Shown here piece by piece: positions 1,140-32,939 of a stretch of 37,682 nt of DNA; position 1 is the first letter of the stretch; every line of letters starts with the position of its first letter. Under the pieces are notes generated by a model. That model did no database searches. It was given only the letters and a program-made list of their open reading frames with translations, and had not been told where the DNA came from. The position numbers were made by a program, and so were the translations under genes. Origin of the DNA: a virus. Lineage: Duplodnaviria > Heunggongvirae > Uroviricota > Caudoviricetes. The DNA lies in IMG/VR virus record IMGVR_UViG_2778261545_000003; one strand, 5' to 3'.

Positions 1140-2129
1140 TCACTCCTGTGCTTTTTCAGCGGTACTTGGCTTTAGTTTTTCTTTGGTTGAATCCCATAAA
1201 GATTGGATTCCCGGAGGGAGTTCTGTTTTGTCAGAAAATGCAGAGTTACCAGACATATTCCAGTCTTTAAAGACTAACACAGCATCTTCTTTTGTTGACG
1301 TGGAACCATAAATTTGCAGGAATACTTGCCCAAACATTAGTGCATGTCTTCTATCTTTTCTCAAAATTGATTCATGGGTATATTTTTTAGAGTTGCCAAG
1401 GCAAATATATGCTAGCCAAGAAAGAATGGAAATACCAATTAAACCACGTGTGAAAAAATAAAATAGCTCAAAGCCTTTAACATTGTTGAAGTCAATTGTG
1501 GCGTAGAGTGTATAAAATGATGCACATACAGCAAGTAGCCCAAAAATGCAGCCAGTAAAAGCCCATACTTGCGACATTTTAATGAAATATAAGTCATCTG
1601 AACTTAGTTCACTTTTAACGCTATCGACATATCCTGGTATTTTCTCATCAATCCTTTCTTGTTGTACTCGGCTTTGTAATTCGCTGTTAGATGCTTCAAG
1701 TTGCTTTATTCTAGATACGGCTTGCTCAATAATTGCTTCTTTTTCAGAATTTAGTTTTTCTAAATTCTCATTCCGAAGATGTAACGTAGCTTTGGACTCT
1801 TCAGCCTCCAATAAACGTTTGGTATATGATCGCATTATCTCTCGAAGATGTTTTTGTTCTTTTATTAATTCATCTATCTTATTGTTTTCATTAATAAAAA
1901 TATCTCCAGCTTTATCGCTGTAGTTCATTTTTTCTTGCTGGGCTAATTTCCAGTAGTATTCTCTGAATTTATCAAGTTCACCTTTTTTTAATAAGTCGAC
2001 TAAGTAGGCGCGTTCATTTTCATTAAATTTATGTAGATTTTCATTTAAAATATTATAAAGATCTTTCCATTCGCAATTAACTTTTTCAACATAATCGTTG
2101 TTTTCATTTTTTTTATTTTCAGAATTCAT
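1140..2129 (-). CDS. Cargo protein, N-terminal coiled coil plus two predicted transmembrane helices (candidate superinfection-exclusion/abortive-infection effector)
   Basis: ORF in the track is 1140..2207; the internal ATG at 2129 has an AAGGA Shine-Dalgarno and avoids overlap with cI. Product about 329 aa; N-terminal 200 aa rich in E/K/L/N heptad-like sequence, then hydrophobic stretches (VWAFTGCIFGLLAVCASFYTLYA and LFYFFTRGLIGISILSWLAYICLG). AT-rich relative to neighbours. Confidence 0.6.
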   Translation of the reverse strand: MNSENKKNENNDYVEKVNCEWKDLYNILNENLHKFNENERAYLVDLLKKGELDKFREYYWKLAQQEKMNYSDKAGDIFINENNKIDELIKEQKHLREIMRSYTKRLLEAEESKATLHLRNENLEKLNSEKEAIIEQAVSRIKQLEASNSELQSRVQQERIDEKIPGYVDSVKSELSSDDLYFIKMSQVWAFTGCIFGLLAVCASFYTLYATIDFNNVKGFELFYFFTRGLIGISILSWLAYICLGNSKKYTHESILRKDRRHALMFGQVFLQIYGSTSTKEDAVLVFKDWNMSGNSAFSDKTELPPGIQSLWDSTKEKLKPSTAEKAQE

Positions 2130-2139
2130 GTATGTTCCT

Positions 2140-3078
2140 TTAAATTTCCTTTGAAAAAACGCAACAACATTTTGCGATGGTTGTAATGTCTTCAAGCTTA
2201 CAAACAAAATCAGTTGTATCTGATGTGATTTTTACTTTTCCAACTGGAATTCTTGTTAATTTTCTTAAACTTACTTTACCTTCAATCTCAATCAACCAAC
2301 TACCATCTGAAACATCATCATATTCTGTATCTGCAATAAAGGTTTTTCCTTCTGCGGTAACTCCAATAGGTTTTTTCAATCCGGAAGGTATAAGCGTCTT
2401 GTCAAATGCTAAGTAGCCTTCATCATGTAATTTACCGTCAATGATTGTTTGGTGTTTAAGTTGGGCTACAGAGCTGGAATTATCGATAAATTTGGGGCCA
2501 TTGCCGTTTGTGAGCCAGAGTAATGAAGTTCCTGTTTCAAGAGCGCATTGAATGATCCAATCGCTAGGAAACGTGTCTCGTAAGTACCTGTTTGCTACAG
2601 TGCTTTTTGAAACCTGCAAATGGTTTGCTAGGGCTTGTCGGGTGCTAAAGCCGTAGGCTGCGACTAAGCGATCAATTGCCGCCTTCCCTCCTTTATTAGG
2701 ATTTATGCTGGTCTCGATTGGGAACTTTTGGGCTATTGAGTTAGTTCTATCCAGGTCATCAGATTTGGTATGGGCTAAACGTTCATCATTTAATAAAACT
2801 GAGGATGATTCACAGCTGATTCCCGATGCCAACCAGTCGATAGATGCGCCGGTCTCTATACTGCAAATTATCACCCAGTCAGCAGGAAATGTGTCACGAG
2901 CATACCTGTTAGCCATCGTGCTTTGTGAGATACCCAGATGATTGCAAAATGCTTGCCGCGAAGTAAAACCATACGCAGCAAGTATACGCTCAATTACTTT
3001 CTGTCCCCCACGGTTTTGCATTATTGAAGTTTTTAGACTCTCGCTAATATGGCGAAATGTGTTTTTTTGAGTTGACAT
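2140..3078 (-). CDS. cI: 186-type CI-like immunity repressor with tandemly duplicated N-terminal DNA-binding domain
   Basis: 312-aa ORF divergent from apl/cII. Two about 60-aa repeats (VIERILAAYGFTSRQAFCNHLGISQSTMANRYARDTFPADWVIICSIETGASIDWL and AIDRLVAAYGFSTRQALANHLQVSKSTVANRYLRDTFPSDWIIQCALETGTSLLWL), about 60 percent identical, matching the phage CI-repressor N-terminal HTH pattern. Confidence 0.7.
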   Translation of the reverse strand: MSTQKNTFRHISESLKTSIMQNRGGQKVIERILAAYGFTSRQAFCNHLGISQSTMANRYARDTFPADWVIICSIETGASIDWLASGISCESSSVLLNDERLAHTKSDDLDRTNSIAQKFPIETSINPNKGGKAAIDRLVAAYGFSTRQALANHLQVSKSTVANRYLRDTFPSDWIIQCALETGTSLLWLTNGNGPKFIDNSSSVAQLKHQTIIDGKLHDEGYLAFDKTLIPSGLKKPIGVTAEGKTFIADTEYDDVSDGSWLIEIEGKVSLRKLTRIPVGKVKITSDTTDFVCKLEDITTIAKCCCVFSKEI

Positions 3079-3166: not shown

Positions 3167-3388
3167 ATGACCCCTAACATTTCAATAACTCTGAATACGC
3201 CACATGTCACAATTGAGCGTTATAGCGAACTTACTGGTCTTTCAATCGATACAATTAACGATATGCTGGCTGACGGTCGCATCCCTCGGCATCGCCTTCG
3301 GAAAGACAAGAAAAGAGAAAAGGTGATGATCAACCTTGCTGCTCTTACCGTTGATGCACTTACTGATTGCAATGTTGTATTCAACTAG
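3167..3388 (+). CDS. apl: Apl/Cox-like excisionase and switch regulator (small HTH protein)
   Basis: 73-aa ORF with AGGAG RBS, first gene of the rightward operon divergent from cI; HTH-like segment [24 protein letters not shown]. Confidence 0.6.
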
Positions 3389-9088: not shown

Positions 9089-9619
9089 TTAACCTTGTAT
9101 AGTTATTTGAATATTTTCTTCATTAACACCAAAGTATAGGGCTAGCCCTGCTTTTGCCTCCTGAAGTGTTAACGGCTTAACTACATTTTCTTCTTCTTCT
9201 TCGTACTCATCACCCGCTTGATCGACAATCGAATTAGTCGGGGTTAATTTGGGAAGAGCTTTAAATTCCAACTTGTCAGCCTCAATGCCAATGTCTTTGA
9301 GGTTGCGATAAGAAACGGGATTCCGATTGCCATCCCATTGTCCTGGGATGTCAATTTCAGCATAAGAATTGATGTTTATGATCCAGCGTTTAGGGTTTTC
9401 TGGAGCCCTGCTTACTCCCGAGATTCGACCGATCATAAAAGCATGATGATGTTTTGCTTCTTGTGATCCCCAGTCCTTTCTCGAATTTTGTACACAAACT
9501 AAATATTCGTGCTTAGCTGCATGGCTGGCGTCAAGTCTCCATGCTTGGCTTCCCCCTGTGTTCAAAATCTCTGTTAAACCACGAGCAGTAAGTACAGTAA
9601 TACAGTTGGTAGTAGCCAT
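9089..9619 (-). CDS. Hypothetical cargo protein (176 aa) in the variable region between the SOS operon and cos
   Basis: Clean ORF on the opposite strand with acidic stretch EYEEEEEN; AT-rich; no recognisable motif. Confidence 0.55.
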   Translation of the reverse strand: MATTNCITVLTARGLTEILNTGGSQAWRLDASHAAKHEYLVCVQNSRKDWGSQEAKHHHAFMIGRISGVSRAPENPKRWIININSYAEIDIPGQWDGNRNPVSYRNLKDIGIEADKLEFKALPKLTPTNSIVDQAGDEYEEEEENVVKPLTLQEAKAGLALYFGVNEENIQITIQG

Positions 9620-10176: not shown

Positions 10177-11091
10177 ATGCCATACCAATTGGTAGAGCTT
10201 AGCCCCGTAGCTAACGATCTTGAACAGTTAGGAACCAAAGAGAAGTTTTGGTTCTATTTCTCCGATGACACTGTAAATTTGCAGTTGTTTAAGTACTCTA
10301 GGCCAGGTACTGGCGAGCATTGGTCTGAAAAGTGTGCTGCTGAGTTATGTCATTTGCTTAACATTCCACATGCTAGCTATGATTTGGCGCGATACAATGG
10401 TCGATTCGGTGTGGTGACTCAGAATATCATTCCATCTGGTTTCCGGATGGTAATGGGAAATGAAGTGCTTCACAGTTCGACATTCGATTATCCTGGGCCT
10501 TTACAAGCCGGGGAAAAGCCGGTAAGGGTCAGAGAACACACTGTCACAAGGGTCTTGGGTTGTTTAGATAGGGAATCTATCAAGCCTCCTCCGAGTGTAT
10601 ATGATCTAACCGGGCTAAATGCAGCAGATGTATTTTGTGGATATTTGATGCTCGATGCACTTGTGAGTAATCAAGATCGCCACCATGAAAATTGGGCAAT
10701 CATGCTTAACAATGAAACTGGTGAGCAGTTTTTGTGTCCAACATACGATCATGCCGCTAGTTTAGGAAGGGAGATGTTAGATGATGAGCGTAACGAACGG
10801 CTTAATACTAAAGATAAAAATCGACAAATCCCATGTTTTGTAAGAAAAGCTCGCTCTGAGCTATTCAAAGCAAAAACTGATAAAAAGCCCTTGCTGACTG
10901 TTGAAGCATTTCAACATGCAGTTGAAGGGAGAGTTGCCGCTCGCGACCATTGGTTAGGTAAGTTGAGCGTTTTAACAGAAGATTCCATTACAGATGTGTT
11001 TAACCAAGTGCCTTCATCGTGTATATCCGACAGTGCACGTAGATTTGCAACGTTAATGGTAATGGAAAATCGCAGAAGGTTACTAGAATGA
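10177..11091 (+). CDS. HipA-like / PI3-4K-like small Ser/Thr kinase (cargo)
   Basis: 304 aa; catalytic-loop-like LVSNQDRHHENWAIM (DRH..N) and downstream YDHAASLG (metal-binding Asp), plus N-terminal LGTKEKFW; AGGGA RBS; stop overlaps the next gene by 4 nt. Confidence 0.55.
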   Translation: MPYQLVELSPVANDLEQLGTKEKFWFYFSDDTVNLQLFKYSRPGTGEHWSEKCAAELCHLLNIPHASYDLARYNGRFGVVTQNIIPSGFRMVMGNEVLHSSTFDYPGPLQAGEKPVRVREHTVTRVLGCLDRESIKPPPSVYDLTGLNAADVFCGYLMLDALVSNQDRHHENWAIMLNNETGEQFLCPTYDHAASLGREMLDDERNERLNTKDKNRQIPCFVRKARSELFKAKTDKKPLLTVEAFQHAVEGRVAARDHWLGKLSVLTEDSITDVFNQVPSSCISDSARRFATLMVMENRRRLLE

Positions 11092-11828
11092 CTAATACAA
11101 ACTCCGTTTACGTCGCATGGCAGGCACCAGATACCAGAGACTGGCATGTTGTTGGTAACTTGCAAGAGCGCAAATCGGGGTATGTTTTCAGGTATACCAA
11201 AGGTGCTCTTAAATCTTCTAAATTTACAAAGTTTAGCGGCATGAGTGATGTTCGTGAAACTTATGTATCGGAAGAATTGTTTCCTCTTTTTAAAAATCGC
11301 CTTTTATCACCGAGACGTCCAGAGTATCCGAGTTTCATTAAATGGCTTGGATTTGAAGAAGATAAGGTAAATCCTATCGATATTCTTGCTCGCTCGGGAG
11401 GCTTACGAAGCACTGATCAGCTGCAGATTTTCAAAAAAATTGATTTTGATTCTGATGGTAACTTTGAGCATTTTTTCTTCTTACATGGACTTGGTTACTT
11501 GAATAGCTTAGCTAATGCTCGTGTATCTGAATTGAAACCGGGGCAAATTTTGCGTCTTTGCTTGGATCTTCAAAATGAATACGATGGGGATGCTGTTGTC
11601 GTTCGTGCAGATAAACCAGCTGAAATCGTTGGTTACTGCCCTAGGTATTTAAGTAATGACATCAAGAAGATGTTATTGGATGATCCAAAATCAATCACTT
11701 TAACGGTCGAAAAGATTAGCGATGATGCTCCTCATAACTATCGGTTATTATGTAAATTATCAGGGGTACTAAGCCAAGCCTGTCAATCGACGCTGATTCC
11801 TCAAGATGAGTTTGAACCTATTGAGTAA
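11088..11828 (+). CDS. Protein with C-terminal HIRAN-like domain (cargo, partner of the kinase)
   Basis: 246 aa; C-terminal LQNEYDGDAVVVRADKPAEIVGYCPRYLSNDIKKMLLD fits the HIRAN pattern (N.YD.nAi.V...........lGY.PR..........L); translationally coupled to the upstream kinase gene. Confidence 0.5.
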   Translation: MTNTNSVYVAWQAPDTRDWHVVGNLQERKSGYVFRYTKGALKSSKFTKFSGMSDVRETYVSEELFPLFKNRLLSPRRPEYPSFIKWLGFEEDKVNPIDILARSGGLRSTDQLQIFKKIDFDSDGNFEHFFFLHGLGYLNSLANARVSELKPGQILRLCLDLQNEYDGDAVVVRADKPAEIVGYCPRYLSNDIKKMLLDDPKSITLTVEKISDDAPHNYRLLCKLSGVLSQACQSTLIPQDEFEPIE

Positions 11829-20660: not shown

Positions 20661-21476
20661 TCATATTTTTAATTTTTTATGGATATGCTCCATCCCTAAA
20701 TTAGATATCTCTTTTTTTAGCTGGGTTTCACTTGCAGTTATCCAGTTTTTTCCACAGTTTGGTAGAAGCATCTCGCTACTTGACGGATTGATAAGTTTTA
20801 CTTTTTCATTCTTTATAATTTTGTTTTTCAAATAACTTTTACTTATTAAGGCTGATTTTTCAGTTATAACGAGATAAAAAAATATGCTTCCAAAAAATAT
20901 ACCTTTTAAAATAATACCGCTGCGTAACAGAACAGGGTCATTTTTGGTTATTCTCATTTTAAAGGGAGAGCAAAGGTTGTCTTCACTTGTAGGTATATTA
21001 AGTTCACTTTTTTGCTCGTCAGTAAGTTTAAGAGGCATGAGCAGTCCAGCGAAGAGCATGACATCTTTTTCTGAAGGCAAAGGTTCTCCGCGGAGAATAT
21101 AATCTTTATATGCGCCAAAAATATGTGTCGATGGATCATTGACCGCGCTTGCCGAGTTGTAAGAAATTTTCATTAACCAGCGTAGCAATAAATGATAATC
21201 ATAAGTTATAGTCGTTTGTGTCTTTAGATAAAGTTGGGTTAAGAAACCGTTTCTGGCTAAAAACTGACTTCCATAATCATCTAAAAAACTTAATGCTCCA
21301 CCATTGCATGTTTTACAAACATCGGCAATTGTTGCCTCACCACCAATTATATCATTTGCTCTCTCGTTCCAGCCTATAAAACGATCTCCAGATTCTTTTT
21401 GATATTTATATATAAATTTAGGGATAATATGTTCTCTTTCTATTATTCCATCTTGCTCGCAATATCTGCAGTGCAT
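20661..21476 (-). CDS. Cargo protein with N-terminal HNH-like (His-Me finger) nuclease motif
   Basis: 271 aa; CRYCEQ...EHIIPKF...GG...CKTCNGG arrangement typical of HNH endonucleases; strongly AT-rich, opposite strand, inserted between S and the V late promoter. Confidence 0.55.
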   Translation of the reverse strand: MHCRYCEQDGIIEREHIIPKFIYKYQKESGDRFIGWNERANDIIGGEATIADVCKTCNGGALSFLDDYGSQFLARNGFLTQLYLKTQTTITYDYHLLLRWLMKISYNSASAVNDPSTHIFGAYKDYILRGEPLPSEKDVMLFAGLLMPLKLTDEQKSELNIPTSEDNLCSPFKMRITKNDPVLLRSGIILKGIFFGSIFFYLVITEKSALISKSYLKNKIIKNEKVKLINPSSSEMLLPNCGKNWITASETQLKKEISNLGMEHIHKKLKI

Positions 21477-23413: not shown

Positions 23414-24011
23414 TCTGCTGCCACCGGGTTCAACACCACTGGAGCGCCGACTGGCGCAAACCTGCAGCGGGATTTCTGATCTGCAGGTGCCGCTTCGTGA
23501 CTTGTGGAATCCGGCAACCTGTCCGGTCAGTTTCCTGCCTTATCTCGCCTGGGCGTTCTCTGTGGATCGCTGGGACGAGGGCTGGACAGAAAGCGTCAAG
23601 CGCCAGGTGGTGAAGGATGCTTTTTATATTCATCAGCATAAAGGGACCACCAGTGCCGTGCGGCGGGTGGTGGAGCCGTTCGGCTTTCTGATCCGCATTA
23701 TTGAGTGGTGGCAGACCGGAGAGGCACCGGGCACGTTTCGCCTGGATATCGGCGTGCAGGACCAGGGCATCACTGAAGATACCTATCTGGAACTTGAGCG
23801 ACTGATAAGCGATGCCAAACCATGTAGCCGTCACATGATCGGCATGTCCATCAATCTGCAGACCAGCGGCCCGCATTGGGTGGGAGCCGCCAGCTATCTT
23901 GGCGAAGAAATCACGATCTATCCGTATATCAACGAAACGATTATTTCCGGTGGCACCGCGCATGAAGGCGGGGCGGTCCATGTTATTGACACAATGAGAG
24001 TGAATCCATGA
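23406..24011 (+). CDS. I: Baseplate/tail-fibre attachment protein I
   Basis: 201-aa ORF, P2 gpI position. Confidence 0.8.
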   Translation: MNSLLPPGSTPLERRLAQTCSGISDLQVPLRDLWNPATCPVSFLPYLAWAFSVDRWDEGWTESVKRQVVKDAFYIHQHKGTTSAVRRVVEPFGFLIRIIEWWQTGEAPGTFRLDIGVQDQGITEDTYLELERLISDAKPCSRHMIGMSINLQTSGPHWVGAASYLGEEITIYPYINETIISGGTAHEGGAVHVIDTMRVNP

Positions 24012-25405
24012 GCACAAAATTTTATACCCTGCTGACGGATATTGGCGCGGCGAAACTTGCCAGCGCCGCCGCGCTCGGTGTGCCGCTAAAAATTACCCAT
24101 ATGGCGGTGGGCGATGGCGGCGGAGTATTGCCAACGCCGGACGCAAAGCAGACGGCACTGGTAAATGAGAAACGCCGGGCTGCGCTGAATATGCTTTATA
24201 TCGACCCGCAGAATAGCAGCCAGATTATTGCTGAACAGGTGATCCCTGAAAACGAGGGCGGTTGGTGGATACGTGAAGTGGGCCTGTTTGATGAGTCCGG
24301 GGCATTGATTGCCGTGGGCAACTGCCCGGAAAGCTATAAGCCGCAACTGGCTGAAGGCAGCGGGCGCACCCAGACCGTGCGCATGGTGCTCATTACCAGC
24401 AGTACGGACAATATCACCCTGAAAATCGACCCTGCTGTAGTGCTGGCAACCCGTAAATACGTGGATGATGAAGTCCTGGAATTAAAGCTGTATGTGGATG
24501 ACCAGATGAGAAACCACATTGCCGCACAAGATCCTCATACCCAGTATGCGCAGAAACATAATCCGACATTTACCGGAGAACCAAAAGCGCCGACGCCTGC
24601 AGCAGGAAATAACACCACGCGGATTGCGACCACTGAGTTTGTTCAGGCCGCTATTACTGCTCTGATTAACGATGCGCCAGCCACGCTGGACACACTGAAA
24701 GAAATTGCCGCAGCCATTAACAATGACCCGAAATTCAGTACCACCATTAACAATGCGCTGGCACTAAAAGCACCGCTGTCGAGTCCGGCACTCACCGGAA
24801 CGCCAACAGCACCTACTGCGGCACAGTCGGTCAACAATACACAGATTGCCACTACAGCTTTTGTGAAATCAGCGATTGCAGCAATGGTGGGTTCTGCACC
24901 TGCGGCACTGGATACACTGAACGAACTGGCGGCGGCACTGGGGAATGATCCGAACTTTGCCACGACAATGCTTAATGCGCTGGCAGGTAAACAACCGCTG
25001 GACAATACGCTTACCAATTTGAGTGGAAAGGATGTAGCTGGTCTTCTCGCATACCTTGGTTTGGGAGAATTATCTCTGGCTGGCACTGCATCGGGTGTCA
25101 TTGGTCTGAATGGGTATGTAACGATTCCGTTAATTATTTCAGGTTCCCGGAGAACACTGATTATTCAGTGGGGGCAGGCGAGATTTGGTGGGTCTGGTGG
25201 TGAAGATGCCGGATATCTTAATGATTTTCCTTTTGCCTTTCCGTCAGCATGTTATGGAATGATAGTTAGTCATGTGGGGCATACACCTTCAGGCGCAGGA
25301 ATCCTGTCGGCTTCTGCAATTACATCAAATCAGTTCCGCGGTTTTTCAAGCATAGCGACTGCTGCAAACGCTGTATTAGGTCGTTATATCGCTATAGGGG
25401 TGTAA
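24008..25405 (+). CDS. H: Tail fibre protein H (constant N-terminus plus currently expressed variable C-terminus)
   Basis: 465 aa; N-terminal region resembles P2 gpH (MAVGDGGG, ESYKP.LAEGSGR, NELAAALGNDPNFATTM.NALAGKQP); C-terminal third lies inside the invertible segment. Confidence 0.85.
   Translation: MSTKFYTLLTDIGAAKLASAAALGVPLKITHMAVGDGGGVLPTPDAKQTALVNEKRRAALNMLYIDPQNSSQIIAEQVIPENEGGWWIREVGLFDESGALIAVGNCPESYKPQLAEGSGRTQTVRMVLITSSTDNITLKIDPAVVLATRKYVDDEVLELKLYVDDQMRNHIAAQDPHTQYAQKHNPTFTGEPKAPTPAAGNNTTRIATTEFVQAAITALINDAPATLDTLKEIAAAINNDPKFSTTINNALALKAPLSSPALTGTPTAPTAAQSVNNTQIATTAFVKSAIAAMVGSAPAALDTLNELAAALGNDPNFATTMLNALAGKQPLDNTLTNLSGKDVAGLLAYLGLGELSLAGTASGVIGLNGYVTIPLIISGSRRTLIIQWGQARFGGSGGEDAGYLNDFPFAFPSACYGMIVSHVGHTPSGAGILSASAITSNQFRGFSSIATAANAVLGRYIAIGV
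25044..25069. repeat. Left crossover site of invertible tail-fibre segment (gix/hix-like)
   Basis: TTCTCGCATACCTTGGTTTGGGAGAA; inverted copy at 26886..26911 (19 of 26 identical, TTGGTTT core conserved); both fall on a shared GLGE peptide junction. Confidence 0.6.
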
Positions 25406-25406
25406 T

Positions 25407-25844
25407 ATGTTTTATAGTCCATCTTTAAACATTTTTGTGAATCCTGCACTTAAGGATGATTACATTAATGCAAATTCATGGCCAGATGATGCTCTGGCTG
25501 TCAGTGATGATGTTTATAATGAATTTGCAGTCAATACGCCTCCAGATGACAAAATTCGTGTTGCAGGAAAAAATGGATTACCCACATGGGCACTAATACC
25601 TCCACCATCGCATGAAGAACTTATTCAACAGGCAGAATCAGAAAGGCAATTATTGCTTAATCAGGCCAACGAATACATGAACAGTAAGCAATGGCCTGGC
25701 AAAGCAGCTATTGGTCGTCTGAAAGGTGAGGAACTGGCGCAATATAATTTGTGGCTGGATTATCTGGACGCACTGGAACTGGTCGATACTTCCGGTGCGC
25801 CAGATATTGAATGGCCTACGCCTCCGGCAGTTCAGGCCAGATGA
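25407..25844 (+). CDS. G: Tail fibre assembly chaperone G (cognate to current H C-terminus)
   Basis: 145-aa ORF following H; tail-fibre-assembly-like C-terminus (DIEWPTPP). Confidence 0.75.
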   Translation: MFYSPSLNIFVNPALKDDYINANSWPDDALAVSDDVYNEFAVNTPPDDKIRVAGKNGLPTWALIPPPSHEELIQQAESERQLLLNQANEYMNSKQWPGKAAIGRLKGEELAQYNLWLDYLDALELVDTSGAPDIEWPTPPAVQAR

Positions 25845-26418
25845 CGTCCGGCGCTGTGCTGGTATCTGTTGCCGTCACCACGTCAATGTAATCCAGCACA
25901 GTGTTAAGGCGGGTTGTTTCTGCCTGCGTCAGCTTCCGTCCGGCCTGTAATTTCAGTTGAATCAGACTGATGGAGGCCATTGCAGTATCAATCAGCGACT
26001 GGCGCTGTGCTTCTGCTGCATCTACTGCTGCGCCGTGCTGTGCCTCAGTATCGGTCACCCATTTCTCACCATCCCATTTATCGTATGGCGTTAACGGGGC
26101 GATAGTGGTTGTATTTTCAGGGTAATCACCCGGAGTTGTGATTTCTTTGGCTTCTCCCGTTTCGGTGTTATAGACGATTTCACCGCGATGGTCTGGCACA
26201 TATTCCCATGAGTTAAAATCTGCAGAACGGCAGATAGCATAACCAGCCTTATATGTGCCTGGTGAATCTAAACAGGAATATGCCGGGATACCAACACCAA
26301 CGGCAAGATATTCATTTGAAGTGGAAATATATTCCCGTGTTTCACCATCATAGTTATAGACGGTAATATTCCCTGCCTTCGTGGCAATAATCTCGCTATT
26401 TAATACAGCGTTATCCAT
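25816..26418 (-). CDS. Alternative tail fibre assembly chaperone (G-prime, inverted orientation)
   Basis: 200-aa ORF on the opposite strand, tail-to-tail with G, shared C-terminal motif (DVIWPELPEA). Confidence 0.7.
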   Translation of the reverse strand: MDNAVLNSEIIATKAGNITVYNYDGETREYISTSNEYLAVGVGIPAYSCLDSPGTYKAGYAICRSADFNSWEYVPDHRGEIVYNTETGEAKEITTPGDYPENTTTIAPLTPYDKWDGEKWVTDTEAQHGAAVDAAEAQRQSLIDTAMASISLIQLKLQAGRKLTQAETTRLNTVLDYIDVVTATDTSTAPDVIWPELPEA

Positions 26419-26898
26419 TATGCAGCCCTCACAATATAATTAAAGGCAATGTTACGTGGGCGGTTCTCATTTGCGGTTGGGACAACGGCTGAAGCATTAA
26501 AATTCGCATACAGGGAGCGTTGATACCCGGATGCTGATGCACCACTTAATGCGGGAGCTTTTGACTCCGAAGCCGAAAAGGCCCCTGACACGTATCCTAA
26601 TAACCCTTGTGAATCGCCAATTGAACTGTAGCCAACCACCCCGGTAATGTTTCGGATAGCATCTCCTTGTGCTGAAAGCAGAGTTCGCCCACTATCCACT
26701 CCCTTTTCACCATCCCAGCCACGAATAAACTCACCGCGTAAATCAGGCAATTTTAACGTCGGGTAAGCCTTTGCCAGATTAGGGTAATCTTCAGCAGAAA
26801 AAGCCGCACCGTTGCATTTCAGCCAGCCTGTTGGCGGTGTGGCTGAAGGCCATGGAACAGGCACACCAACAGGCAGCGCAGAGCCTTCCCCTAAACCA
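26418..26898 (-). other. Silent alternative tail-fibre C-terminal cassette (H-prime variable region)
   Basis: Minus-strand reading frame with tail-fibre-tip-like sequence (LPDLRGEFIRGWDG); upstream junction GLGE coincides with the right crossover site; no promoter of its own. Confidence 0.65.
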
Positions 26899-26911
26899 AC
26901 GTTTAAGAAAA
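26886..26911. repeat. Right crossover site of invertible tail-fibre segment
   Basis: TTCCCCTAAACCAACGTTTAAGAAAA, similar to the Gin/Hin site consensus (AAACC-NN-GGTTT core). Confidence 0.6.
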
Positions 26912-26960
26912 TGCAGAGGTAACAGCTAACTGGCATCATCTCCGGTTTTTATTCAGGGGA

Positions 26961-27538
26961 ATGATCATGCTTATTGGCTATGTACGCGTGTCAACAAATG
27001 ACCAGAACACCGATTTGCAACGTAATGCACTGAACTGCGCGGGATGTGAGCGGATTTTTGAGGACAAAATCAGTGGTACTAAGTCCGACAGACCGGGGCT
27101 TAAAAAACTGCTCAGGACACTATCGGCAGGTGACACACTGGTTGTCTGGAAGCTGGACAGGTTGGGGCGCAGTATGCGGCATCTTGTTACTCTGATAGAA
27201 GAGTTGCGCCAGCGCGGCGTGAATTTCAGAAGTCTGACTGACAGTATTGATACCAGTACCCCAATGGGCCGTTTCTTTTTTCATGTCATGGGTGCCCTGG
27301 CTGAAATGGAACGCGAACTGATAGTTGAACGTACCAGGGCAGGGCAGGGCTGGCTGCAGCTCGTGCTAAAGGCAGAGTAGGTGGACGCCGTCCTAAGTTG
27401 ACTACCGAACAGTGGGCACAGATTGGACGTTTACTCGAGGCCGGAGAATCAAGACAGCGTATTGCACTGATTTTTGATGTGGGCGTTTCTACCATTTATA
27501 GAAAATTTCCGGCGAATGAGAACAATGAATCGCCCTGA
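26961..27538 (+). pseudogene. Gin/Hin/Pin-family serine DNA invertase, frameshifted
   Basis: N-terminal 130 aa match the serine-recombinase catalytic domain (MLIGYVRVSTNDQ...LVVWKLDRLGRS); three tandem AGGGC copies at 27336..27350 where two would give ...ERTRAGLAAARAKGRVGGRRPKLT...; as read the frame stops at 27380 and the HTH domain is in another frame to 27538. Confidence 0.75.
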
Positions 27539-27586
27539 GTCAGCATTATTTTGATTTTTCCTGTAAGCGGACAAATACCGTTATTT

Positions 27587-27604
27587 TGTGTGAATAACGA
27601 CACA
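27587..27604 (+). promoter_or_regulatory. P2-type late promoter activator site (TGT-N12-ACA) upstream of FI
   Basis: TGTgtgaataacgacACA, about 77 bp upstream of the FI start. Confidence 0.55.
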
Positions 27605-27680
27605 ACTGCGCTTAGCTGTTTGTCAGGCACAATCACTTCAACATAGGGCGAAGCCTAATCCAATCAGGAGGTTCGCCACT

Positions 27681-29735: not shown

Positions 29736-29869
29736 CGGTTGACGATCTGGTGGCTGATATCGCCACCATCTTTCACTGGCCGCCATCCGTTACTGACGTT
29801 ATGCCGCTGACCGAAGTGCTGGAATGGCGGTATAAAGCGATTCAGAGAAGCGGGGCCAACGATGAGTGA
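29433..29869 (+). CDS. E': Tail assembly chaperone E+E' (programmed -1 frameshift product)
   Basis: Slippery T_TTT_TTG at 29708..29714 in the E frame; the -1 frame stays open to TGA at 29867..29869, overlapping the T start; extension reads ...FFVEEVGACRFTDSLTVDDLVADIATIFHWPPSVTDVMPLTEVLEWRYKAIQRSGANDE. Confidence 0.7.
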
Positions 29870-32800
29870 TAATAACCTGCGCCTGCAGGTCATTCTTAAT
29901 GCGGTTGACAAACTCACCCGCCCATTCCGTGCTGCACAGGCCAGTTCGAAAGAGCTGGCTGGCGCAATTCAGAATACCCGAAACAGCCTCAAAGAACTGA
30001 ATAAGCAGGCTGGCAGAATTGATGAATTTCGCAAGACGCGCTCGCAACTAGCCATAACAGCCAACAACCTGAACGCAGCCCGCGAAGAGGCGGCAAAACT
30101 CGCCACACAATTTGCTGCCACTAACAGGCCAACCGCCGCGCAGGCAAAGTTATTCAGTCAGGCCAAAACACGAGTACAGGAACTTCAGCAGACCTATAAC
30201 GGCTTGTTGGGGGCGGTCCAGAGACAACGTCAGGCACTTAAAGAATCAGGGATTGATACCAGACAACTCAGTAGTGCCCAGCGAGAACTTAAGAAAAATG
30301 CCGAAGAAACTCGTCAGGCACTGGAGGGCCAGCAAAAAGCACTTAAACGTCTGGGTGAACAACAGGCACGGATGAACGCTGCCAGAGAACAATACTCAAG
30401 ACGGCTTGAAGTGCGCGATCGCATCGCAGGAGCCGGAGCCACTACCACGGCTGCAGGGCTGGCAATGGGCGCGCCAGTGATGGCGGCGGTAAAAAGCTAT
30501 ACCAGCATGGAAGATGCCATGAAAGGTGTGGCAAAGCAGGTCAATGGTCTGCGTGACGATAATGGCAACCGCACTGCGCGTTTTTACGAAATGCAGGATG
30601 CCATCAAAGCTGCCAGTGAACAGCTGCCAATGGAAAACGGTGCTGTGGACTTCGCCGCACTGGTTGAAGGTGGTGCGCGCATGAATGTGGCAAACCCTGA
30701 CGACAGCTGGGAGGACCAGAAACGTGACCTGCTGGCCTTCGCCAGTACGGCAGCAAAGGCGGCAACAGCCTTTGAGCTGCCAGCGGATGAACTGTCAGAA
30801 AGTCTGGGGAAAATCGCCCAGCTCTACAAAATACCAACCCGCAATATTGAACAGCTCGGTGATGCGCTGAACTATCTGGATGATAACGCTATGTCGAAAG
30901 GGGCAGACATCATTGATGTCATGCAACGCCTGGGCGGTGTGGCTGATCGTCTGGATTATCGTAAAGCGGCGGCGCTGGGTTCCACCTTCCTGACACTGGG
31001 TGCTGCGCCGGAGGTCGCTGCCAGTGCTGCCAACGCGATGGTGCGTGAATTGTCCATTGCGACCATGCAAAGCAAGAGTTTCTTTGAAGGAATGAATCTG
31101 CTGAAACTCAATCCTGAAGTGATTGAAAAGCAGATGACGAAGGATGCGATGGGAACTATCCAGCGCGTACTGGAGAAGGTGAACGCACTGCCGCAGGATA
31201 AGCGCCTGTCTGCCATGACCATGTTGTTTGGTAAAGAGTTTGGCGATGATGCGGCGAAACTGGCAAACAACCTGCCGGAACTGCAGCGCCAGCTAAAACT
31301 GACAGCGGGCAATGATGCGCTCGGTTCGATGCAGAAAGAATCCGACATTAACAAGGACTCACTTTCTGCGCAGTGGTTGCTGGTCAAAACCGGAGCGCAG
31401 AACACCTTCAGCAGCCTGGGCGAAACGCTGCGCCAGCCGCTGATGGATATTCTGTACACGGTGAAAAGCATCACGGGGGCGTTGCGCCGCTGGGTGGAAG
31501 CTAACCCGGAACTGACAGGCACACTGATGAAAGTAGCCGCTGTGGTGGCTGCGGTTACCGTAGGCCTCGGCACCTTAGCGGTGGCGCTGGCTGCAGTGCT
31601 GGGGCCGCTGGCAGTGATCCGTCTGGGATTCTCTGTGCTGGGTATCAAAACGTTACCTTCCGTTACGGCAGCAGTAACTCGAACCAGCAGCGCGTTGTCC
31701 TGGCTGGCTGGCGCACCACTGGCACTGCTGCGACGCGGGCTTGCTTCATCGGGCAACGCCGCAGGTTTACTTACTGCGCCGTTGTCGTCTTTGCGCCGCA
31801 CGGCATCACTGACGGGAAATGTCCTGAAAACTGTAGCAGGTGCGCCGGTTGCACTTTTGCGGTCTGGATTATCCGGTTTACGTGCTGTTGCTGCGATGTT
31901 TATGAATCCTCTGGCGGTACTGCGCGGTGGACTGGTCGCCGCAGGCACGGTGCTGCGAGTACTGGCATCTGGTCCACTGGCGATGCTGCGCGTTGCGCTG
32001 TATGCCGTATCTGGTCTGTTAGGTGCTCTGCTCAGTCCGATAGGTCTTGTGGTTACTGCACTGACGGGTGTGGCGCTGGTTGTCTGGAAATACTGGCAAC
32101 CCATCACCGCATTTCTCGGTGGCGTGGTGGAAGGATTCAAAGCGTCGGCAGGTCCCATCAGTGCTGCATTCGAACCACTTAAGCCTGTGTTTCAGTGGAT
32201 TGGCGACAAAGTGCAGGCGTTGTGGGGTTGGTTTACTGATCTGCTGACGCCTGTTAAGTCGACCTCTGCTGAACTGCAGAGCGCAGCGGCAATGGGGCGC
32301 CGATTCGGGGAGGCTCTGGCGGAGGGGCTGAATATGGTCATGCATCCGCTGGACTCCCTGAAATCCGGTGTTTCCTGGTTGCTGGATAAACTCGGCATTG
32401 TCAGTAAAGAAGCTGCAAAGGCGAAACTGCCGGAAAGCGTGACGCGTCAGCAACCTGCGACGGTGAATGCAGACGGTAAAGTGATGATGCCATCGGGTGG
32501 TTTTCCATCATGGGGATATGGCTTTGCGGGGATGTATGACAGCGGCGGCTATATCCCGCGCGGGCAGTTTGGCATCGTCGGTGAAAACGGGCCGGAAATT
32601 GTTAACGGCCCGGCAAATGTGACCAGCCGGAGAAATACAGCTGCACTGGCTGCCATTGTTGCCGGAATGATGGGCGTTGCTGCCGCGCCTGCAGAGCTTC
32701 CACCGTTGCATCCTTTGGCGCTTCCCGCGAAAGGTGGTGAAGCGATGATGAGTCGCGCAGCCACTGTGCCGCCAGTTCAACGGATTGAGGCACCGACGCA

Positions 32801-32939
32801 GATCATCATCCAGACGCAGCCAGGACAAAGTGCTCAGGATATTGCGCGGGAGGTGGCACGCCAGCTTGATGAACGTGAACGCAGGCTGAAGGCAAAAGCC
32901 AGGAGTAACTACAGCGATCAGGGGGGATACGACGCATGA
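29862..32939 (+). CDS. T: Tail tape measure protein
   Basis: 1025-aa ORF, coiled-coil N-terminus, Ala/Gly-rich hydrophobic central region. Confidence 0.85.
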   Translation: MSDNNLRLQVILNAVDKLTRPFRAAQASSKELAGAIQNTRNSLKELNKQAGRIDEFRKTRSQLAITANNLNAAREEAAKLATQFAATNRPTAAQAKLFSQAKTRVQELQQTYNGLLGAVQRQRQALKESGIDTRQLSSAQRELKKNAEETRQALEGQQKALKRLGEQQARMNAAREQYSRRLEVRDRIAGAGATTTAAGLAMGAPVMAAVKSYTSMEDAMKGVAKQVNGLRDDNGNRTARFYEMQDAIKAASEQLPMENGAVDFAALVEGGARMNVANPDDSWEDQKRDLLAFASTAAKAATAFELPADELSESLGKIAQLYKIPTRNIEQLGDALNYLDDNAMSKGADIIDVMQRLGGVADRLDYRKAAALGSTFLTLGAAPEVAASAANAMVRELSIATMQSKSFFEGMNLLKLNPEVIEKQMTKDAMGTIQRVLEKVNALPQDKRLSAMTMLFGKEFGDDAAKLANNLPELQRQLKLTAGNDALGSMQKESDINKDSLSAQWLLVKTGAQNTFSSLGETLRQPLMDILYTVKSITGALRRWVEANPELTGTLMKVAAVVAAVTVGLGTLAVALAAVLGPLAVIRLGFSVLGIKTLPSVTAAVTRTSSALSWLAGAPLALLRRGLASSGNAAGLLTAPLSSLRRTASLTGNVLKTVAGAPVALLRSGLSGLRAVAAMFMNPLAVLRGGLVAAGTVLRVLASGPLAMLRVALYAVSGLLGALLSPIGLVVTALTGVALVVWKYWQPITAFLGGVVEGFKASAGPISAAFEPLKPVFQWIGDKVQALWGWFTDLLTPVKSTSAELQSAAAMGRRFGEALAEGLNMVMHPLDSLKSGVSWLLDKLGIVSKEAAKAKLPESVTRQQPATVNADGKVMMPSGGFPSWGYGFAGMYDSGGYIPRGQFGIVGENGPEIVNGPANVTSRRNTAALAAIVAGMMGVAAAPAELPPLHPLALPAKGGEAMMSRAATVPPVQRIEAPTQIIIQTQPGQSAQDIAREVARQLDERERRLKAKARSNYSDQGGYDA

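What the first reader, a model, noticed from the sequence alone, without database searches (positions are those of the whole stretch)
27336..27350. DNA invertase disrupted by a 5-bp tandem repeat expansion (AGGGC x3)
The invertase reads normally through ...ERTRAG, then hits three tandem AGGGC copies. With two copies the frame would continue into a typical C-terminal HTH domain (...LAAARAKGRVGGRRPKLTTEQWAQIGRLL...IYRKF...). With three, the ORF ends at 27380 and the DNA-binding domain is out of frame. The tail-fibre segment is therefore probably locked unless complemented in trans. A short tandem repeat here could be a slippage-driven on/off switch, a fixed inactivating mutation, or a sequencing error.
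Basis: seen in the sequence. Interest (0 to 1): 0.6.

Follow-up and report, generated by a model that had tools for sequence, protein, structure and literature searches.

The report
Frameshifted tail-fibre invertase in P2-like prophage
A prophage enzyme that normally flips a DNA segment to switch the phage's tail-fibre tip has been knocked out by a one-off 5-base duplication; this is an ordinary, recent loss-of-function mutation, not a new kind of genetic switch.

Summary
AGGGC occurs three times in tandem at 27336-27350, inside a Gin/Pin/Fin-type serine DNA invertase gene (26967-27380) of a P2/186-like E. coli prophage. Every relative examined has two copies. The extra unit shifts the frame after Gly127, in helix E. 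The product ends at 27380 with only the catalytic domain. The DNA-binding part (GGRRPK arm plus HTH_7) lies intact but out of frame at 27350-27538.

The allele is in the NCBI draft GCA_002229775.1 and in an independent Logan assembly of SRR3989742, so an assembler artefact is unlikely.

It is private. I found no three-copy allele among 640 complete E. coli records, 62 viral contig stretches or 58 metagenome stretches that carry the two-copy tract. That argues against a hypermutable on/off tract.

The cis machinery is intact:
- Two 26-bp gix/pix-like crossover sites (25044-25069 and 26886-26911) share a TT core.
- In-silico inversion gives an in-frame 509-aa alternative fibre.
- Relatives with intact invertases carry the segment in either orientation.

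Most likely this is a recent slippage-type duplication that made a pseudogene and locked the gp53-like fibre tip, unless another Din-family invertase in the cell acts in trans. Low interest.

The parts
27336..27350 (+). AGGGC x3 tandem array; the extra 5-bp unit relative to all relatives is the frameshifting lesion
26967..27380 (+). Truncated invertase ORF (137 aa from MLIGY; an upstream in-frame ATG at 26961 gives 139 aa). It holds the catalytic Ser9, the resolvase catalytic domain and helix E up to Gly127, followed by 10 junk residues and a stop.
   Evidence: this exact product is on record only for this isolate
27350..27538 (+). Out-of-frame remainder of the invertase gene: end of helix E, the GGRRPK minor-groove arm and the HTH_7 DNA-binding domain. 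It is undecayed and identical to the intact allele of E. coli G5.
25044..25069 (+). Left 26-bp crossover site, TTCTCGCATACC TT GGTTTGGGAGAA, inside tail-fibre gene H. Its right half (TTGGTTTGGGAGAA) equals the e14 P-segment inverted repeat quoted in PMC12529663.
26886..26911 (-). Right 26-bp crossover site (reverse complement TTTTCTTAAACG TT GGTTTAGGGGAA) with the same TT core, about 69 bp upstream of the invertase start, as in Mu (67 bp)
25058..26897 (.). Invertible segment of about 1.84 kb. Collinear alignment to relatives stops at the two sites, and the interior is inverted in L042 and L041.
24008..25405 (+). Tail-fibre gene H in the current orientation (465 aa): constant part up to about 25057 fused to a gp53-like C-terminal tip
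25407..25844 (+). Tail-fibre assembly chaperone that matches the expressed tip (145 aa)
25816..26418 (-). Silent alternative tail-fibre assembly chaperone (200 aa, tfaE-like)
26418..26897 (-). Silent alternative fibre tip (collar domain). After in-silico inversion it fuses in frame to the constant part of H and gives a 509-aa fibre.

Best explanation
The window holds a P2/186-like E. coli prophage with a Mu G-segment-type tail-fibre inversion module: constant H, then tip plus chaperone, then chaperone' and tip' on the other strand, then the invertase. Its Gin/Pin/Fin-family serine invertase gene has gained one extra copy of a pre-existing AGGGC AGGGC direct repeat. The likeliest cause is replication slippage (inferred).

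The +5 frameshift falls after Gly127 in helix E. The product keeps the catalytic domain but loses the minor-groove arm and the helix-turn-helix domain, so it cannot bind the crossover sites (inferred from family knowledge).

The lesion is real, recent and private to this isolate. It is an ordinary pseudogenising mutation, not an evolved switch.

The crossover sites, and the 5' part of the gene where the enhancer lies in this family, are unchanged. The segment is therefore frozen in the gp53-like-tip orientation unless another Din-family invertase in the same cell inverts it in trans.
For: Frameshift and domains:
- Repeat and frameshift.
- Domain loss and restoration.
- The repaired protein aligns end to end with Mu Gin (3UJ3/4M6F, E 2e-92), with Ser9 conserved. 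The E helix is about residues 102-137 and the DBD 138-183 (PMC3575834).
- The C-terminal 52 residues of Hin and its G139-R140 are essential for DNA binding (PMC4122451).

Recent:
- Only one substitution separates this gene from the intact allele of E. coli G5, and the out-of-frame 3' part is identical to it.

Real:
- The window is NCBI GCA_002229775.1 contig NLNU01000004.1.
- The Logan assembly of SRR3989742 is identical over 11,196 bp, including the three units.

Private:
- All 640 E. coli complete-genome records that cover the 80-bp query align at 95% identity or less, with the listed hits spanning 75 bases, so they lack the unit.
- The listed full-length matches to the 701-bp query span 695-696 bases, as do most listed phage records.
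- The 3-copy 25-mer has 0 hits in viral contigs and 0 in metagenome contigs. The 2-copy 20-mer has 62 and 58 stretches.
- The 1-copy form has 0 hits in viral contigs.
- The exact truncated product is found on this isolate's contigs only.

Cis parts intact:
- Crossover sites and shared TT core.
- In-frame 509-aa fibre after in-silico inversion.
- Both junction types occur in nature: 33 and 454 records.
- Relatives L042 (inverted) and L043 (same orientation) both have intact invertases.

Background:
- Slippage precedent: the lacI (CTGG)3 hotspot (PMC12606429).
Against: - No reads were inspected, so a 2-copy subpopulation or a culture-derived mutation cannot be excluded.
- SRR3989742 may be the read set of the same isolate, so the two assemblies may not be independent biological samples.
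- The slippage origin is inferred from the sequence pattern alone.
- Loss of DNA binding is inferred from Hin, Gin and gamma-delta resolvase, not measured.
- Whether the segment is really locked depends on other invertases in the genome, which I could not examine.
Confidence: 0.8

Rival explanations
1. Sequencing or assembly artefact: the isolate really has two AGGGC units and an intact invertase.
For: - The allele is known from one isolate only.
- The NCBI and Logan assemblies may derive from the same reads.
- Several Typhi draft assemblies break contigs exactly at ACCAGGGC in the homologous gene, joined by a single N. This spot can therefore be awkward for short-read assembly.
Against: - Two different assembly pipelines give the identical sequence over 11.2 kb, including the tract.
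- A clean in-register 5-bp tandem insertion is not a typical Illumina or de Bruijn-graph error (my knowledge).
- The surrounding sequence shows no other anomalies.
Confidence: 0.07
2. Slipped-strand contingency switch: the AGGGC tract toggles between 2 and 3 units at elevated frequency. This would turn the invertase on or off and so add a second, slower layer of control over tail-fibre phase variation.
For: - The lesion is an exact unit gain in a direct repeat.
- Three units should revert or expand more readily than a random frameshift, as at the lacI (CTGG)3 hotspot (PMC12606429).
- The tract uses the codons AGG and GGG, which by my knowledge are rare in E. coli, and it is kept in many relatives.
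Against: - No copy-number polymorphism was found: 0 three-copy alleles among 640 E. coli records, 0 against 62 viral and 0 against 58 metagenome stretches, and 0 one-copy alleles in viral contigs.
- Two to three units is far below the tract lengths of known contingency loci (my knowledge).
- Mu gin encodes the same peptide without the repeat (ACG ATG GCT GGA CTT), so the repeat is not a family feature.
Confidence: 0.05
3. The truncated protein, consisting of the catalytic domain and most of helix E, has a function of its own. For example, it could form dead heterodimers with other Din invertases in the cell and so damp their inversion systems (dominant negative).
For: - The ORF keeps its start, the catalytic domain (Pfam E 1e-49) and most of the dimerisation helix E.
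- Din invertases from different prophages act on each other's segments (PMC12529663), so mixed oligomers are conceivable.
Against: - No second instance of such a truncated allele was found.
- The out-of-frame 3' part is undecayed, which fits a very recent accident better than a selected new gene.
- There is no experimental support.
Confidence: 0.03

Closest known systems
Phage Mu Gin / G segment
   Same: - Same gene order: constant fibre part, Sv, U, then U' and Sv' on the other strand, then the invertase.
- 26-bp crossover sites of the form TTnTCnnAAACC-nn-GGTTTnnnGnAA in inverted orientation, with the right site 67-69 bp upstream of the invertase start.
- The repaired protein aligns over residues 1-183 with Gin structures 3UJ3/4M6F (E 2e-92).
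   Different: - The host element here is a P2/186-like prophage, not Mu.
- The segment is 1.84 kb rather than 3 kb.
- The core dinucleotide is TT rather than TC.
- Mu gin has no AGGGC repeat at this codon.
- The gene here is frameshifted.
E. coli e14 PinE / P segment, and PinQ/PinR acting on it
   Same: - A Din-family invertase next to a roughly 1.8-kb tail-fibre segment.
- The window's left site contains TTGGTTTGGGAGAA, the e14 inverted-repeat sequence quoted in PMC12529663.
- The segment carries a tfaE-like chaperone.
- pinE mutants have the P segment locked (PMC12529663), which is the phenotype predicted here.
   Different: e14 is a defective lambdoid element. Here the prophage looks complete and P2-like. 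The lock is due to a natural 5-bp duplication, not an engineered deletion.
Salmonella Fels-2 Fin (P2-like prophage invertase) and the invertible tail-fibre loci of P2-like prophages in EPEC E2348/69
   Same: - The cluster named 'serine-type DNA invertase Fin' is 91% identical to the window's first 126 residues (P0043).
- Fin acts in trans on the Hin H segment (PMC4122451, PMC12529663).
- P2-like prophage invertons were shown to be mixed-orientation in culture (PMC4272514).
   Different: Those invertases are intact and active. This one lacks its DNA-binding domain.
lacI (CTGG)3 slippage hotspot (Farabaugh et al. 1978, as reviewed in PMC12606429)
   Same: Gain of exactly one unit of a short direct repeat inside a coding region, producing a frameshift. 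The proposed cause is replication slippage.
   Different: The ancestral tract here has only two units of 5 bp, so it is expected to be a weaker hotspot. No recurrence was seen in about 760 related sequences.

Membership tests
Fis/enhancer-dependent DNA invertases (Din family: Gin, Cin, Pin, Hin, Fin) | N-terminal resolvase-type catalytic domain with the nucleophilic serine (Ser9 in Gin) | tested here: met
   Pfam PF00239 E 1.1e-49. Alignment to Gin 3UJ3 from residue 1, with MLIGYVRVS and Ser9 conserved. Ser9 role from PMC3575834.
Fis/enhancer-dependent DNA invertases (Din family: Gin, Cin, Pin, Hin, Fin) | C-terminal minor-groove arm plus helix-turn-helix DNA-binding domain, in frame with the catalytic domain | tested here: not met
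   The product as it stands has no HTH. HTH_7 (PF02796, E 1.4e-15) appears only after one AGGGC unit is removed. The gene is therefore a pseudogene of a family member, not a functional member.
Fis/enhancer-dependent DNA invertases (Din family: Gin, Cin, Pin, Hin, Fin) | Two 26-bp crossover sites in inverted orientation with identical central dinucleotides, flanking the segment next to the invertase gene | tested here: met
   Sites at 25044-25069 and 26886-26911, both with a TT core. They share the Mu gix pattern. Alignment breakpoints to relatives with the inverted segment fall within these sites.
Fis/enhancer-dependent DNA invertases (Din family: Gin, Cin, Pin, Hin, Fin) | Invertase-specific residues that contact Fis or the enhancer: basic residues at Hin 47, 48, 51 in helix B, and Gln151/Arg154/Leu155 in DBD helix 1 (PMC3798978) | tested here: met
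   By inspection of the translation, allowing for Hin's one extra N-terminal residue: K46, K47 and R50 are present. The out-of-frame DBD reads ...EQWAQIGRLL..., with Q, R and L at the positions corresponding to Hin's Gln151, Arg154 and Leu155. Feature list.
Fis/enhancer-dependent DNA invertases (Din family: Gin, Cin, Pin, Hin, Fin) | Recombinational enhancer with two Fis sites in cis, within the 5' part of the invertase gene | tested here: inconclusive
   No Fis-site model was applied. The first 374 nt of the gene are identical to the intact allele of E. coli G5. This 5' stretch is 70-77% identical to Mu gin (42-46 of 60 per block), no more conserved than the rest of the gene. Whatever enhancer the relatives have is unchanged here.
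Fis/enhancer-dependent DNA invertases (Din family: Gin, Cin, Pin, Hin, Fin) | Demonstrated inversion of the segment | not testable with these tools
   Indirect evidence only. The same segment occurs in both orientations in relatives with intact invertases. For this isolate, both assemblies show one orientation at the right junction.
Mu G-segment-type tail-fibre inversion module | Constant 5' fibre part outside the segment, two alternative 3' tips with their own assembly chaperones on opposite strands inside it, and both fusions in frame | tested here: met
   ORFs and families. The 465-aa fibre as found and the 509-aa fibre after in-silico inversion are both open. Same layout as Mu.
Simple-sequence contingency locus (slipped-strand phase variation) | Repeat tract long enough to be hypermutable (many units) | tested here: not met
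   Three units here and two in all relatives.
Simple-sequence contingency locus (slipped-strand phase variation) | Unit-number polymorphism among related strains or elements | tested here: not met
   0 three-copy alleles among 640 E. coli records. 0 against 62 viral and 0 against 58 metagenome stretches. 0 one-copy alleles in viral contigs.
Simple-sequence contingency locus (slipped-strand phase variation) | Mixed unit numbers within a clonal population | not testable with these tools
   This needs the reads of SRR3989742 or amplicon sequencing.

The most novel reading that the evidence does not exclude
The AGGGC tract works as a low-copy slippage toggle. Occasional 2<->3 unit changes switch the invertase off and on, so that lineages of lysogens are committed for a time to one tail-fibre type. 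This would be a slow mutational lock layered over fast site-specific inversion. Nothing measured here supports elevated rates. The evidence only fails to exclude rare reversible toggling.
Probability: 0.05. Interest if true: 0.5.

Novelty: new member of a known kind. Interest (0 to 1): 0.1.

Why it matters
It matters little beyond annotation.
- The gene should be marked as a frameshifted pseudogene of a Gin/Pin/Fin-type invertase.
- Phage particles from this lysogen are predicted to carry only the gp53-like fibre tip, and so have a narrower host range, unless another invertase in the cell compensates.
- The case is a tidy natural example of a unit-gain slippage mutation.
- It also gives a natural 'locked' control for studying P2-like tail-fibre invertons.

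Tried and rejected
1. 40-base megablast queries centred on the 3-copy and 1-copy tracts found nothing in the E. coli genomes. I count these as uninformative. The 28-base word requirement and the low-complexity filter could suppress true hits, and I ran no positive control. The 80-bp query and the exact-pattern scans carry the argument instead.

2. The exact 19-mer scan of species-representative genomes returned only unrelated GC-rich loci. One is a decayed Arthrobacter resolvase pseudogene (L028). It has AGGGC x3 at the homologous codon, but as an in-frame +6 within a gene that has other frameshifts. I treat it as coincidence.

3. Six Salmonella Typhi protein entries break off right after ...ERTRA, and for a moment this looked like a recombination breakpoint at the same codon. 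The two I checked at DNA level (P0006, P0012) have a single N after ACCAGGGC, so they are scaffold joins in draft assemblies.

4. An IMG/VR hit to the 19-mer (L167) is an unrelated GC-rich repeat with no invertase.

5. Programmed ribosomal frameshifting or restart at the TTG ORF 27398..27538 was considered and dropped. There is no slippery motif in A GGG CAG GGC AGG GCT, and no relative uses such an arrangement.

6. The generic inverted-repeat finder missed the crossover sites because the arms are too diverged. I found them by comparing the peptide and DNA of the two fibre tips.

7. Searching papers for the assembly and run accessions found nothing.

Full report
**1. The observation**

The + strand at 27330-27359 reads cgtacc-AGGGC-AGGGC-AGGGC-tggctgcag, so the three units occupy exactly 27336-27350. 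Tandem Repeats Finder reports period 5, 3.2 copies and 100% matches. This is the only 5-mer x3 array in the window, and only 10 of 300 Markov shuffles of the window contain any such array.

The ORF 26961/26967..27380 ends ...IVERTRAGQGWLQLVLKAE*. Removing one unit gives a 188-aa protein that continues ...RAGLAAARAKGRVGGRRPKLTTEQWAQIGRLLEAGESRQRIALIFDVGVSTIYRKFPANENNESP*. Pfam finds only the Resolvase catalytic domain in the product as it stands. It finds Resolvase plus HTH_7 in the repaired product.

**2. What the gene is**

The repaired protein aligns over residues 1-183 with the crystallised Mu Gin invertase (3UJ3, 4M6F; E about 1e-92), including the catalytic Ser9. A cluster named 'serine-type DNA invertase Fin' (Fels-2) is 91% identical to its catalytic part.

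In the numbering used for gamma-delta resolvase and Gin, the catalytic domain is about residues 1-101, helix E is 102-137 and the DNA-binding domain is 138-183 (PMC3575834). The frameshift falls after Gly127, inside helix E. Everything needed for site recognition is lost. In Hin, the C-terminal 52 residues and G139-R140 are essential for DNA binding (PMC4122451).

The invertase-specific Fis/enhancer contact residues listed in PMC3798978 are present. The basic helix-B residues are K46, K47 and R50. The Q, R and L of DBD helix 1 also survive, but in the part that is now out of frame.

**3. The surroundings**

The window is a P2/186-like prophage lying next to ybjL/ybjM. It carries:
- an integrase;
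- a 186-type CI and CII;
- a Dam methylase;
- gpA;
- portal, terminase, capsid, lysis, baseplate and tail genes;
- ogr.

No other late gene looks disrupted: all called genes have the expected sizes and families.

Upstream of the invertase lies a module with the same layout as the Mu G segment:
- H (24008-25405, + strand);
- a tail-fibre assembly gene (25407-25844, + strand);
- a second assembly gene (25816-26418, - strand);
- a promoterless collar-type fibre tip (26418-26939, - strand).

The generic repeat finder missed the crossover sites. Comparing the two fibre tips located them at 25044-25069 (TTCTCGCATACC TT GGTTTGGGAGAA) and 26886-26911 (reverse complement TTTTCTTAAACG TT GGTTTAGGGGAA). 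They share the Mu gix pattern, and the right site lies 69 bp upstream of the invertase start, against 67 bp in Mu. The right half of the left site equals the e14 P-segment repeat quoted in PMC12529663.

In-silico inversion between the TT cores gives an open 509-aa fibre. Both junctions exist in complete E. coli genomes. The junction as found occurs in 33 records and the predicted inverted junction in 454, each covering at least 80% of the query. These counts also reflect how widespread each tip is, so they do not measure an orientation bias. Strain HCM-26C-1 carries the module inverted and strain ST95-32 carries it as here, both with intact invertases. Collinearity with the window ends exactly at the two sites. 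The cis machinery is therefore intact and of a type known to work.

**4. Real or artefact**

The exact 137-aa product is on record from two sources: NCBI GCA_002229775.1 (contig NLNU01000004.1, which contains the window) and a Logan assembly of run SRR3989742. The Logan contig is identical to the window over 11,196 bp, including the tract.

Two pipelines agreeing makes an assembler artefact unlikely. I could not establish whether the run belongs to the same isolate, and no reads were seen. NCBI gives the product no protein accession. This may mean the gene was annotated as a pseudogene; I could not check.

**5. Private or recurrent**

- With an 80-bp query spanning the tract, 640 E. coli complete-genome records match over at least 80% of it. 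All align at 95% identity or less, and the listed hits span 75 bases. None carries the third unit.
- Listed full-length matches to a 701-bp query span 695-696 bases in E. coli, and most listed phage records do too.
- The three-copy 25-mer is absent from IMG/VR and from the metagenome contigs. The two-copy 20-mer occurs in 62 and 58 stretches there.
- A one-copy form is absent from IMG/VR.
- None of the 27 atypical homologues retrieved from the 120 best cluster representatives carries the junk tail expected from 3 or 1 units. This check is weak, because truncated variants can hide inside 90% clusters, as this one does.
- Among the relatives fetched, about 96 of 109 scorable copies have full-length ORFs and the rest are broken at other places. 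Decayed invertases are therefore not rare, but this particular lesion is unique.

**6. Age**

Over 621 aligned columns, the gene differs from the intact allele of E. coli G5 by one synonymous-type substitution and the 5-bp gap. The out-of-frame 3' part is identical. The lesion is recent.

**7. Mechanism**

*Shown:* there is a +5 unit gain in a pre-existing direct repeat, a frameshift and loss of the DNA-binding domain, while the crossover sites and both fibre tips remain intact.

*Inferred:*
- The gain arose by replication slippage, as at the lacI (CTGG)3 hotspot (PMC12606429).
- The truncated protein cannot bind or recombine the sites.
- The segment is locked with the gp53-like tip expressed.

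*Open:* Din invertases act on one another's segments. PinR, PinE and PinQ all act on e14; Fin acts on the Salmonella H segment; PinE acts on H and on Mu G (PMC12529663). Another invertase in this genome could therefore still flip the segment. The Logan contig runs unbranched through the right junction. That is weakly consistent with a single orientation, but minor variants would have been filtered out.

**8. The switch hypothesis**

Known contingency loci rely on long tracts and show unit-number polymorphism among strains (my knowledge). Here the tract has 2 units, or 3 in this isolate, and is invariant in about 760 related sequences. Mu gin encodes the same peptide without the repeat. Three units should revert somewhat more easily than a random frameshift, so rare reversal is possible. 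Nothing indicates an evolved switch.

**9. Verdict**

This is a correctly observed, real and recent pseudogenising duplication in a well-known type of phage inversion system. It is useful for annotation and as a natural 'locked' variant. It is not surprising to a specialist.

Noticed in passing
window 10177-11828 (+): A two-gene cassette: a 304-aa protein with a weak HipA_C match and a 246-aa protein with a HIRAN domain. It matches the PADLOC candidate defence system PDC-M03, proteins A (E 2e-122) and B (E 7e-93). It sits between the replication gene gpA and the portal gene, which is the cargo hotspot of P2-like phages.
   Followed up: partly
window 20661-21476 (-): An orphan 271-aa ORF on the opposite strand between tail-completion gene S and baseplate gene V. 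It has no convincing family in Pfam, PADLOC or PHROGs (only a weak HNH_5 match at E 5e-4 and a weak PHROG of unknown function at E 1e-4). It is probably a moron.
   Followed up: partly
window 1140-2207 (-) and 9089-9619 (-): Two further cargo-like ORFs of unknown function: a 355-aa protein between the integrase and CI (phrog_2628), and a 176-aa protein (phrog_37247). Neither has a PADLOC hit.
   Followed up: partly
L044 about 3200-3215 and L045 about 2165-2175 (Salmonella Typhi draft assemblies): In the homologous invertase of two Typhi drafts, the sequence runs ...GTACCAGGGC, then a single N, then unrelated parts of the invertible segment. Contigs therefore end exactly at this motif and were scaffold-joined. 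This produced a family of bogus 'site-specific recombinase' proteins with different tails (P0005-P0009, P0012; P0006 has 119 members). Why contigs end there is not explained.
   Followed up: partly
L028 7154-7200 (-), Arthrobacter sp. NPDC089319: A decayed resolvase/invertase pseudogene carries AGGGC x3 at the homologous codon (ERTKGRAGLAAA). Here it is an in-frame +6 relative to the usual ERTxAGLAAA, and the gene has other frameshifts. Probably coincidence.
   Followed up: partly
window 27585-27605 (+): A dyad, tgtgtgaataacgacaca (TGT-N12-ACA type), lies between the invertase stop and the tail sheath gene FI. It looks like an Ogr-dependent P2 late promoter element, which would make sheath expression independent of the broken invertase. 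This rests on reading the sequence and on memory of P2 late promoters; it was not tested.
   Followed up: no
L041 4284-4981 (E. coli G5, closest relative): In the closest relative, the invertible segment is inverted relative to the window, has partly different content, and carries an IS1A insertion that splits one tail-fibre assembly gene. Its invertase is intact.
   Followed up: partly
window 31700-31712 (+): A CTGG x3 array, the same unit and copy number as the classic lacI hotspot, lies inside the tape-measure gene (29862-32939), which is open. Not examined further.
   Followed up: no
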